From the UHGV virus genome UHGV-0229837: 11,317 nt of DNA, one strand, 5' to 3'. Each line of letters opens with the position of its first letter. Positions within the stretch are counted from its first letter, which is position 1. Origin of the DNA: a virus. Positions 404 to 1,132 of this stretch are shown here, in pieces. Position numbers and translations under genes: made by a program. The notes beneath the pieces are model-generated. The model worked only from the letters and a program-made list of their open reading frames with translations. It did not search any database and was not told the DNA's origin.

Positions 404-496
404 TTAAATTTAGCACTGTTAAAAATTTAATCCTTAACCGGAGGGATTTCTGCACCCTCAGAACAGCAGGAGGCCACCCGAAAGGGCGGTAGTGAA

Positions 497-679
497 ATGC
501 GAAAGTTCAAAATAATTATTGAAACGGGAATGGCTGGTGGAGATTTCGAGGATGAATTCGAAGTGGATGCTGATGCGACGCCTGATGAAATACATGACGA
601 AGCAAAAGATATTTTCTTTAACTACTGCAATTACTCATATCACGAAATAAAAGACGAAGAGGAAGAGCAAAATGGCTGA
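497..679 (+). CDS. Small acidic protein (60 aa), nin-region-like
   Basis: ATG start; perfect AGGAGG at 468-473 separated from the ATG by a GNRA-tetraloop hairpin; stop overlaps the start of the next ORF (ATGGCTGA). Acidic C-terminus (DEEEEQNG) loosely resembles lambda NinF-type proteins, from memory only. Confidence 0.5.
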   Translation: MRKFKIIIETGMAGGDFEDEFEVDADATPDEIHDEAKDIFFNYCNYSYHEIKDEEEEQNG

Positions 680-848
680 TTTTGGTTCAACTAAATACAA
701 CGTCAGTTTTGAAAAATGGCATGAACTGTTAATGGACTATGCAGAGTTACGTGGTGGCAGTGCTGCTGATGCTGAAGCATGGCGTGATGATTATGAAGCA
801 GGAAAAAATCCGGTCGAAGCATATTGTGATGAGTGGGGCGATGAATGA
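672..848 (+). CDS. Small hypothetical protein (58 aa: MADFGSTKYNVSFEKWHELLMDYAELRGGSAADAEAWRDDYEAGKNPVEAYCDEWGDE)
   Basis: Hand-translated; absent from the track because it is under 60 aa. ATG overlaps the upstream stop, and its own stop overlaps the next ATG (ATGA), indicating translational coupling in a small-gene operon. Confidence 0.45.
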   Translation: MADFGSTKYNVSFEKWHELLMDYAELRGGSAADAEAWRDDYEAGKNPVEAYCDEWGDE

Positions 849-1132
849 GCGAGATTAATTATCAGGAAGGGTATGAAACGGCGGGGCAAGCAAAACCAGT
901 GGCATGGCGATATCGCTACGTGAAAAAAGGCGTTACGGACTTTCAGGAGAAGTAGTGGCCTGTTGACTGGAAATATGTACCGAAAAAAGAGGATTGTAAC
1001 GACAGGCCGAACTATCAAATTCAGGCCTTATTCACTGCCTCACCAGCCCTGGTTACATCAGAAGAACTGGTTAAAGCTGTGCACTTTTATGAACAACTAA
1101 AACGCGAAAATCCACCAACATCCGGCAACTAG
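845..1132 (+). pseudogene. Small ORF interrupted by an in-frame amber codon: 36 codons (MSEINYQEGYETAGQAKPVAWRYRYVKKGVTDFQEK), TAG at 953-955, then 58 further sense codons with no start codon, to TAG at 1130-1132
   Basis: Hand-translated. The ATG at 845 overlaps the upstream stop (ATGA). The 58-codon open stretch downstream of the amber has no ATG/GTG/TTG start near its beginning, consistent with a nonsense-split 94-codon gene or stop-codon readthrough. Confidence 0.35.

What the first reader, a model, noticed from the sequence alone, without database searches (positions are those of the whole stretch)
468..1132. Translationally coupled small-gene operon ending in an amber-interrupted ORF
Three consecutive ORFs overlap start-on-stop (ATGGCTGA at 672-679; ATGA at 845-848). 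The last stops at an amber TAG (953-955) but stays open in frame for 58 more codons with no start codon. This is best explained by a recent nonsense mutation splitting a 94-codon gene, or by readthrough in a suppressor host.
Basis: seen in the sequence. Interest (0 to 1): 0.45.

Follow-up and report, generated by a model that had tools for sequence, protein, structure and literature searches.

The report
Decayed pseudogene in Qin-type cryptic prophage
The amber-interrupted third ORF is the wreck of a 171-codon phage accessory gene in a defective Qin-type prophage of E. coli; it carries two stop codons, a 90-bp deletion and a frameshift, and RefSeq already flags it as a pseudogene, so the finding is ordinary.

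Summary
ORFs 497-679, 672-848 and 845-955 overlap as ATGGCTGA and ATGA. The frame after TAG 953-955 stays open for 58 codons.

The TAG is a nonsense mutation inside a conserved gene. That gene is 171 codons in intact relatives (phrog_660, no known function), not 94.

The window copy carries three further lesions:
- a 90-bp in-frame deletion, with its junction at about 1109-1118;
- a second amber at 1130-1132, where intact copies have CAG;
- a 4-bp deletion at 1163/1164, which moves the C-terminal remnant (1165-1266) into another frame.

NCBI's PGAP calls the same stretch (845-1266) "frameshifted; internal stop" in a 99.9% identical genome.

The mutation is not recent. All seven RefSeq pseudogene alleles examined share TAG plus the 90-bp deletion, as do 41 of 76 pooled loci. 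These alleles are 93-100% identical to the window.

The 36-aa product is not conserved. In 31 of the 41 TAG alleles an upstream A-run has slipped to A7 or A8, or the frame is otherwise disrupted.

Suppressor readthrough would give only a crippled product. The window's two tRNAs (anticodons CAT and TCT) are not suppressors.

ORF1 (DUF7167) and ORF2 are intact, and their overlaps are conserved. The surrounding region is a decaying Qin-type prophage. Interest is low.

The parts
1..142 (+). Context: right end of an IS21-family element (ISEc62-like, end of istB), inserted into the gene upstream of the cassette.
   Evidence: Window 1-142 is identical to L001 10995-11136, the end of the annotated IS21-like ISEc62 there. 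Identity stops at window 143.
128..403 (+). Context: 5'-truncated zinc-ribbon ORF (phrog_1621), cut by the IS insertion.
   Evidence: phrog_1621 E = 3.5e-42. The intact 107-aa version in L001 (5681-6004) has about 20 N-terminal residues that the window lacks.
468..496 (+). Leader of ORF1: AGGAGG (468-473), hairpin CCACCC-GAAA-GGGCGG (474-489), then 7 nt to ATG 497.
   Evidence: Read in the sequence. RNA fold gives -12.4 kcal/mol, z = -2.1. Stem variants in relatives: G-C in 71 loci, A.C in 10, A-T in 1, T.G in 1.
497..679 (+). ORF1: intact 60-aa DUF7167 protein.
   Evidence: Pfam PF23768 scores 52.6 bits against a cutoff of 24.4. phrog_1997 E = 1.3e-29. The exact protein occurs on at least 1000 contigs.
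672..848 (+). ORF2: intact 58-aa protein of unknown function. Its start overlaps the ORF1 stop (ATGGCTGA).
   Evidence: Matches phrog_519 positions 76-137, E = 5e-22. The exact protein occurs on at least 1000 contigs. Annotated as a CDS in all relatives that carry it.
845..1266 (+). Whole pseudogene: remnant of a 171-codon phrog_660 gene.
   Evidence: PGAP pseudogene 'frameshifted; internal stop' at the equivalent coordinates of L001. Alignments to intact copies.
845..955 (+). Residual 36-codon ORF ending at the amber. Its start overlaps the ORF2 stop (ATGA).
   Evidence: The exact 36-aa product has been called on 304 contigs.
953..955 (+). Amber TAG at codon 37, the first lesion.
   Evidence: Intact copies have CCG, ATG, CTG or CAG here. 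The nearest-context allele, L007, has TGG.
956..1129 (+). 58 in-frame codons after the amber. They correspond to residues 38-92 of the intact protein plus the post-deletion codons TSGN.
   Evidence: BLASTP 78% identity, E = 3e-31.
1109..1118 (+). Junction of a 90-bp (30-codon) in-frame deletion between direct repeats AATCCRCCA.
   Evidence: Alignments A1 and g3. The missing residues are 93-122 of the intact protein.
1130..1132 (+). Second amber TAG.
   Evidence: Intact copies have CAG here.
1163..1164 (+). Site of a 4-bp deletion (TGGT in intact copies), giving a frameshift.
1165..1266 (+). C-terminal remnant in a different frame, ending at the ancestral TGA (1264-1266).
   Evidence: BLASTP to residues 139-171 of the intact protein, 67% identity, E = 5e-14.

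Best explanation
The window is part of a defective lambdoid prophage of the Qin type in an E. coli chromosome. Positions 497-1266 are a three-gene accessory cassette in the early-right region, between the replication genes and hokD/DUF968/rusA/Q. Its small genes abut start-on-stop.

The first two genes are intact: a 60-aa DUF7167 protein and a 58-aa protein. The third was a 171-codon gene of the phrog_660 family, function unknown, and is now a pseudogene.

A single-base change, TGG or CAG to TAG, created the amber at codon 37. The copy also has a 90-bp deletion between short direct repeats, a second CAG-to-TAG amber, and a 4-bp deletion.

The long open frame after the first amber is leftover coding sequence that has not yet accumulated more stops. 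Nothing is read through and nothing functional is made from it. At most, ribosomes that finish ORF2 translate a 36-residue fragment and stop.

Shown directly: the lesions, their sharing among strains, and the intactness of relatives. Inferred: loss of function, translational coupling of the overlapping genes, and the order of the mutations.
For: - **Existing annotation.** PGAP annotates the equivalent 845-1266 as a pseudogene, 'frameshifted; internal stop', in a genome 99.9% identical over window 400-1300. It does the same in L002, L003 and L014-L016.
- **Intact relatives.** Intact 171-aa genes sit at the same cassette position in L004, L005, L010-L012 and L017. A 119-aa version is present in a sequenced phage, vB_EcoS-689R5. 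The intact protein matches phrog_660 at E = 2e-74.
- **The lesions.** The DNA alignments show all four. The remnants match the intact protein in two different frames.
- **Family size and lengths.** The family has 1639 database hits. Among the 120 listed, none is shorter than 95 aa.
- **Position of the amber.** The stop lies between near-invariant residues: W38 and D41-W42-K43-Y44. It also lies inside the only confidently modelled part of the AlphaFold model, a beta domain at residues 20-62 with pLDDT about 80.
- **Linkage of lesions.** Every TAG allele examined also has the 90-bp deletion: 7 of 7 RefSeq loci and 41 of 41 in the pooled set.
- **Slippage upstream.** The A-run at 923-928 is A6 in only 10 of the 41 TAG alleles. 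It is A7 or A8 in 30, and one more is disrupted in another way. It is A6 in all intact alleles tallied.
- **Changes private to the pseudogene lineage.** Codons 38-92 carry 9 non-synonymous and 6 synonymous changes, including changes at the near-invariant P69 and G74.
- **Decaying context.** The window is collinear with K-12 Qin. An IS21-family end lies at 1-142. Relatives carry IS insertions and internal stops in neighbouring genes. Qin is reported as a widespread, highly variable 'grounded' prophage present in 48% of 638 strains (PMC6379469).
Against: - The first 36 codons and the ATGA overlap are well preserved in the window's own sub-lineage (1 non-synonymous and 2 synonymous private changes). 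Translation of a short peptide is therefore not excluded.
- The substitution counts are too small for a significant dN/dS test.
- No expression data were available.
- The census of alleles rests on samples, not on all 2,335 matching records. The samples were 7 RefSeq loci and the 80 best IMG/VR loci.
- Recombinant alleles exist: L032 has an intact-like 5' half joined to a pseudogene 3' half. The order of the lesions therefore cannot be reconstructed.
Confidence: 0.93

Rival explanations
1. Suppressor-dependent or programmed readthrough: the UAG at 953-955 is decoded at some frequency and yields a functional 94-residue (or longer) protein.
For: The frame stays open for 58 codons after the TAG and still resembles the family. 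Laboratory supE/supF strains do read UAG; this rests on general knowledge.
Against: - Readthrough would meet a 30-codon deletion, a second UAG at 1130-1132 and a frameshift. The product would lack residues 93-122 and the whole C-terminal module.
- Intact homologues use eight different sense codons at this position, never a stop.
- The window's tRNAs have anticodons CAT and TCT, so there is no suppressor.
- No Rfam element lies in 468-1132.
- Most TAG alleles are frameshifted upstream of the stop.
- The base after the stop is U. From general knowledge of E. coli termination contexts, this favours termination.
Confidence: 0.02
2. Neofunctionalised micro-protein: the 36-aa N-terminal fragment is retained as a functional third cistron.
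For: The ATGA overlap and the first 36 codons are intact in the window's sub-lineage. The exact 36-aa product is called on 304 contigs. Few private substitutions lie upstream of the stop.
Against: - In 31 of 41 TAG alleles the frame is shifted or disrupted before codon 37, giving unrelated 40-, 76- or 85-aa ORFs. The peptide is therefore not conserved across the lineage.
- In the model, the fragment ends in the middle of a beta-sheet domain.
Confidence: 0.03
3. Sequencing or assembly error, or a strain-private recent mutation.
For: None beyond the a priori possibility.
Against: The same TAG is present in independent complete genomes from several continents (L001-L003, L014-L016) and in 41 pooled loci. 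These include alleles only 93.6% identical to the window.
Confidence: 0.01

Closest known systems
RefSeq pseudogene H7R25_RS24610 in E. coli WP8-S18-ESBL-07 (NZ_AP022261.1 1958662-1959083), and the equivalent PGAP pseudogenes in other strains
   Same: Same locus and same boundaries (window 845-1266), in a genome 99.9% identical over window 400-1300. Annotated 'frameshifted; internal stop'.
   Different: Nothing material. The window differs by one base in codon 39 (CCT against TCT).
Intact 171-aa hypothetical proteins WP_044311238.1, WP_029400500.1 and WP_001289996.1 (PHROGs family phrog_660)
   Same: Same cassette position after the DUF7167 gene and the 58-aa gene, with the same ATGA overlap. 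About 78% identical over residues 38-92.
   Different: They are uninterrupted. The window copy has two ambers, a 90-bp deletion and a 4-bp deletion. The function of the family is unknown: no Pfam, NCBIfam, PADLOC, PDB or fold match was found.
Clusters of small overlapping ORFs in lambdoid early-right regions, such as the lambda/P22 nin region (from general knowledge; not tested here)
   Same: Same-strand small accessory genes between the replication genes and Q, joined by ATGA-type overlaps that suggest translational coupling.
   Different: The genes here are not nin genes by sequence. Coupling is inferred from the overlaps only.
Cryptic prophage Qin of E. coli K-12
   Same: Collinear with hokD, ydfU, essQ, rrrQ-rzpQ-cspI and tfaQ at 82-98% identity. 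dicB, ydfA-D and dicA-like genes lie upstream in the near-identical genome L001.
   Different: K-12 Qin has no counterpart of window 1-1800. It carries ydfX, ydfW, flxA, ydfV and relBE there instead.
Laboratory amber mutants of temperate phages that need supE/supF hosts (general knowledge)
   Same: A UAG inside a phage gene.
   Different: Those are single conditional lesions in otherwise intact, essential genes. This is a natural, multiply damaged accessory gene in a prophage that cannot make particles.

Membership tests
phrog_660 (171-aa lambdoid accessory protein family) | Sequence similarity across the family profile. | tested here: met
   The intact orthologue scores E = 2e-74 over profile positions 34-193. 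The window remnants match residues 1-36, 38-92 and 139-171 of that orthologue.
phrog_660 (171-aa lambdoid accessory protein family) | An uninterrupted reading frame encoding the full protein. | tested here: not met
   Two in-frame TAGs, a 90-bp deletion and a 4-bp deletion. The window copy is a pseudogene of the family, not a functional member.
Programmed or suppressor-mediated stop-codon readthrough gene | The stop codon is conserved in functional homologues and followed by an intact, conserved extension. | tested here: not met
   Sense codons in all 96 informative representatives. The extension is broken by three further lesions.
Programmed or suppressor-mediated stop-codon readthrough gene | A decoding agent (suppressor tRNA) or a readthrough-promoting RNA element is present. 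| tested here: not met
   The only tRNAs have anticodons CAT and TCT. No Rfam family matches in 468-1132.
Translationally coupled overlapping cistrons | The stop of the upstream gene overlaps the start of the downstream gene on the same strand, and this is conserved in relatives. | tested here: met
   ATGGCTGA at 672-679 and ATGA at 845-848. The junctions are conserved in 84 of 85 and 75 of 76 loci.
Translationally coupled overlapping cistrons | Downstream translation depends on upstream translation. | not testable with these tools
   This needs reporter fusions with upstream nonsense mutations.
DUF7167 (Pfam PF23768), for ORF1 | Score above the Pfam gathering threshold. | tested here: met
   52.6 bits against a cutoff of 24.4, covering profile positions 1-60 of 60.
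Qin-type cryptic lambdoid prophage | Gene order and sequence collinear with K-12 Qin, and lacking morphogenesis genes. | tested here: met
   BLAST blocks to hokD, ydfU, essQ, rrrQ-rzpQ-cspI and tfaQ are in order. In the window, the lysis genes are followed directly by a csp gene and a tail-fibre fragment.

The most novel reading that the evidence does not exclude
The part of the finding's interval that is not explained by gene decay is the ORF1 leader (468-496). A strong AGGAGG lies 23 nt from the ATG, too far to act as a normal Shine-Dalgarno box. A GNRA-looped hairpin (474-489) could bring it to within about 7 nt of the start. This would resemble the hairpin-bridged initiation regions described for T4 genes 38 and 25, a comparison made from memory. 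If so, the hairpin would be a structural translation enhancer or switch that sets expression of the whole coupled cassette. One stem position varies G-C / A.C / A-U among relatives. This variation is suggestive but thin.
Probability: 0.3. Interest if true: 0.3.

Novelty: already known. Interest (0 to 1): 0.08.

Why it matters
It matters little for biology. This is a textbook case of accessory-gene decay in a grounded prophage, and the reference annotation pipeline already flags it.

It has some practical value:
- The 36-aa 'hypothetical protein' called on hundreds of contigs is a pseudogene fragment and should not be counted as a small protein.
- The linked lesions (TAG at codon 37, the 90-bp deletion, the second TAG, the 4-bp deletion and the A-run length) are convenient markers for tracing Qin-prophage lineages and recombination among E. 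coli strains.

Tried and rejected
- **Function of the intact 171-aa protein.** Pfam, NCBIfam and PADLOC gave no hit. A PDB profile search gave only spurious matches to designed TIM barrels. The AlphaFold model was of low confidence, mean pLDDT 56.5. Foldseek against viral structures gave no hit at E <= 0.001; the best TM-score was 0.23, and the second hit was an Ead/Ea22-like protein, in line with the sequence-level mosaicism. No functional assignment was possible.
- **Literature.** No paper in the library mentions DUF7167.
- **RNA element.** No Rfam family matches in 468-1132.
- **Prophage-encoded suppressor tRNA.** Rejected.
- **Selection test.** Lineage-specific substitution counts are 9 non-synonymous and 6 synonymous downstream of the TAG, and 1 and 2 upstream. 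They point toward relaxed constraint but are too few for statistics.
- **Order of mutations.** This could not be resolved. L007 has the A8 run with TGG, L003 has A8 with TAG, the window has A6 with TAG, and L032 is a recombinant.
- **Wider taxonomic sampling of the ORF1 leader.** The species-representative genome scan returned only two loci: a Shigella flexneri genome and a probably contaminated MAG. Covariation support for the hairpin therefore stays weak.

Full report
**1. The observation**

The mechanical ORF list and the sequence confirm three consecutive + strand ORFs: 497-679 (60 aa), 672-848 (58 aa) and 845-955 (36 aa). The first pair overlaps by 8 nt (ATGGCTGA, 672-679). The second pair overlaps by 4 nt (ATGA, 845-848).

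Translating on from 845 gives TAG at 953-955, then 58 sense codons (956-1129), then a second TAG at 1130-1132.

Three details need correcting. The start coordinate 468 is an AGGAGG box, and the ORF1 ATG is at 497. 'No start codon' is true for ATG, but an in-frame GTG sits at 1079-1081. The three ORFs belong to a longer same-strand run of early phage genes rather than an operon of their own.

**2. Where the window comes from**

A megablast of 400-1300 against complete E. coli genomes finds the region in 2,319 of 5,426 genomes. Of these, 1,215 cover at least 80% of the query.

In a genome 99.9% identical over window 400-1300 (L001) the gene order is: exonuclease, ydfD, dicB, ydfC/B/A, two HTH regulators, YdaT, an O-like gene, DUF977, then the cassette studied here, then hokD, DUF968, rusA, Q and tRNAs.

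The window itself continues with lysis genes, a csp gene and a tail-fibre fragment. It is collinear with the K-12 cryptic prophage Qin at hokD, ydfU, essQ, rrrQ-rzpQ-cspI and tfaQ. K-12 has no counterpart of window 1-1800.

Qin is described in the literature as a widespread, size-variable, degenerating 'grounded' prophage, present in 48% of 638 strains (PMC6379469).

Window 1-142 is the right end of an IS21-family element. It is identical to the ISEc62 end in L001. The IS has cut off the 5' end of the upstream zinc-ribbon gene.

**3. What the third ORF is**

PGAP annotates the stretch equivalent to window 845-1266 as one pseudogene, 'frameshifted; internal stop'. It does so in L001 and in five other strains sampled.

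In other strains the same cassette position holds an uninterrupted 516-nt gene encoding 171 aa (L004, L005, L010-L012, L017). A sequenced phage, vB_EcoS-689R5, has the same three-gene cassette with a 119-aa version.

The intact protein matches PHROGs family phrog_660 at E = 2e-74. Its function is unknown.

DNA alignments show that the window copy differs from intact copies in four ways:
- TAG at codon 37. Intact copies have CCG, ATG, CTG or CAG. The allele with the most similar flanks, from Shigella dysenteriae (L007), has TGG. A single transition from TGG or CAG is therefore the likely origin.
- A 90-bp in-frame deletion between direct repeats AATCCRCCA, with its junction at about 1109-1118. 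It removes residues 93-122.
- A second amber at 1130-1132, where intact copies have CAG.
- A 4-bp deletion at 1163/1164.

After the 4-bp deletion the C-terminal module continues in another frame to the ancestral TGA at 1264-1266.

The remnants match the intact protein in these separate frames. Positions 956-1129 match residues 38-92 at 78% identity, E = 3e-31. Positions 1165-1263 match residues 139-171 at E = 5e-14.

**4. Is codon 37 ever a stop in functional relatives?**

A search of the large protein collection gives 1,639 relatives. The family is mosaic: a conserved core is joined to different N- and C-terminal modules, including Ead/Ea22-like and DUF551 parts.

Among the 120 listed representatives the shortest is 95 aa. 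The 96 that contain the W-x-x-DWKY motif have P (57), M (16), Q (12), S (4), L (3), A (2), R (1) or W (1) at the position of the amber.

The amber lies between near-invariant residues: W38 and D41-W42-K43-Y44. It also lies inside the only confidently modelled part of an otherwise poor AlphaFold model, a small beta domain at residues 20-62 with pLDDT about 80.

The opposite is found.

**5. Age and spread**

All seven RefSeq pseudogene alleles examined carry both TAG37 and the 90-bp deletion. These are the window and L001-L003 and L014-L016, at 93.6-99.9% identity. Those that have not suffered a further 64-bp deletion also share the second TAG and the 4-bp deletion.

I pooled loci from RefSeq, a phage record and IMG/VR, and 76 had a recognisable gene-3 start:
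- 41 have TAG, always together with the 90-bp deletion.
- 29 are intact sense alleles (171, 119 or 129 aa).
- 6 are recombinants that join an intact-like 5' half to the pseudogene 3' half (L032).

The evenly spaced sample of the megablast ranking suggests roughly a thousand complete genomes carry the pseudogene type. That figure is an extrapolation, not a count.

The exact 36-aa product has been called on 304 contigs. The mutation is therefore old and inherited with the prophage, not recent.

**6. Is the 36-aa fragment or a readthrough product maintained?**

Among the 41 TAG alleles, the A-run at 923-928 is A6 in only 10. It is A7 or A8 in 30, and one more allele is disrupted in another way. 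In all these the frame shifts before codon 37, giving unrelated 40-, 76- or 85-aa ORFs. All intact alleles tallied have A6. This is the pattern expected when selection on the reading frame has ceased.

Changes private to the window's lineage number 9 non-synonymous and 6 synonymous in codons 38-92. They include changes at the near-invariant P69 and G74. Codons 1-36 have 1 non-synonymous and 2 synonymous changes. The direction fits relaxed constraint, but the counts are too small for a test.

Readthrough of the first UAG would still meet the deletion, the second UAG and the frameshift. The prophage's two tRNAs have anticodons CAT and TCT. No Rfam element lies in the interval.

**7. The two intact genes and the overlaps**

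ORF1 is a full-length DUF7167 protein, scoring 52.6 bits against a cutoff of 24.4, and matches phrog_1997. ORF2 matches the C-terminal half of phrog_519. Each exact sequence is seen on at least 1,000 contigs.

Both overlaps are conserved in relatives, in 84 of 85 and 75 of 76 loci. Purine-rich boxes precede both internal starts: GAGGAA before ATG 672 and GGGG before ATG 845.

Translational coupling is a reasonable inference. It is typical of small-gene clusters in lambdoid early regions (general knowledge), but it was not tested.

None of the three proteins matches a defence-system model or an NCBIfam family.

**8. Verdict**

The finding is a real but ordinary feature: a multiply damaged pseudogene at the end of a small accessory-gene cassette in a decaying Qin-type prophage. 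The reference annotation already marks it as such.

The only mildly interesting residue within the interval is the ORF1 leader. An AGGAGG box lies 23 nt upstream of the ATG, separated from it by a GNRA hairpin (fold -12.4 kcal/mol, z = -2.1). One stem position varies G-C / A.C / A-U. This may be a hairpin-bridged ribosome binding site, but the covariation evidence is thin.

Noticed in passing
window 468-496: AGGAGG lies 23 nt upstream of the ORF1 ATG, separated from it by a hairpin, CCACCC-GAAA-GGGCGG. In relatives the third stem pair is G-C (71 loci), A.C (10 loci, including the window), A-T (1) or T.G (1). This may be a hairpin-bridged Shine-Dalgarno arrangement.
   Followed up: partly
window 1-142: The window begins inside an IS21-family element. 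Positions 1-142 are identical to the right end of ISEc62 as annotated in L001 at 10995-11136. The IS is inserted into the upstream zinc-ribbon gene (phrog_1621) and removes about 20 N-terminal codons. A promoter-like site at 99-126 faces outward from the IS end.
   Followed up: partly
window 1387-1566: A 59-aa hydrophobic ORF (MKNALQFLFVAFWLF...) has AGGAGG 7 nt upstream of its ATG and lies just before the sok/hokD locus. PGAP does not annotate it in L001, yet the exact protein is seen on at least 1000 contigs, where one source calls it 'putative membrane protein'. It has no Pfam, PHROG, NCBIfam or PADLOC match.
   Followed up: partly
window 1656-1826 and 1824-1979: Rfam sok antitoxin RNA (101 bits), followed by a 51-aa HokD toxin ORF 98% identical in DNA to K-12 hokD. 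There is no relBE next to it, unlike in K-12.
   Followed up: no
window 5116-5191, 5296-5372, 6069-6258, 9528-9912, 11079-11277: Two prophage tRNAs lie downstream of Q: anticodon CAT (annotated tRNA-Ile in L001) and Arg-TCT. Rfam also matches STnc100 sRNA, a cspA-type thermoregulator leader in front of the csp gene, and IS009 RNA inside the tail-fibre assembly gene region.
   Followed up: no
L032 (IMG/VR) and five similar loci; L007-L009 (Shigella dysenteriae); L099 (Shigella flexneri): Other decay states of the same cassette occur. Six loci hold a recombinant 104-aa allele (intact-like 5' half joined to the pseudogene 3' half). The S. dysenteriae allele has A8 with TGG at codon 37, annotated as a 152-aa protein from an internal start. 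The S. flexneri copy has an internal stop in ORF1 and a GTG start for ORF2.
   Followed up: partly
L098 (JAIHTM010000290.1, labelled Collinsella sp. MAG): A 3-kb scaffold in a Collinsella MAG carries this E. coli prophage cassette. Its ORF1 is 95% identical to the window's ORF1, and its gene 3 encodes the same 119-aa product as phage vB_EcoS-689R5. This is most likely binning contamination.
   Followed up: no
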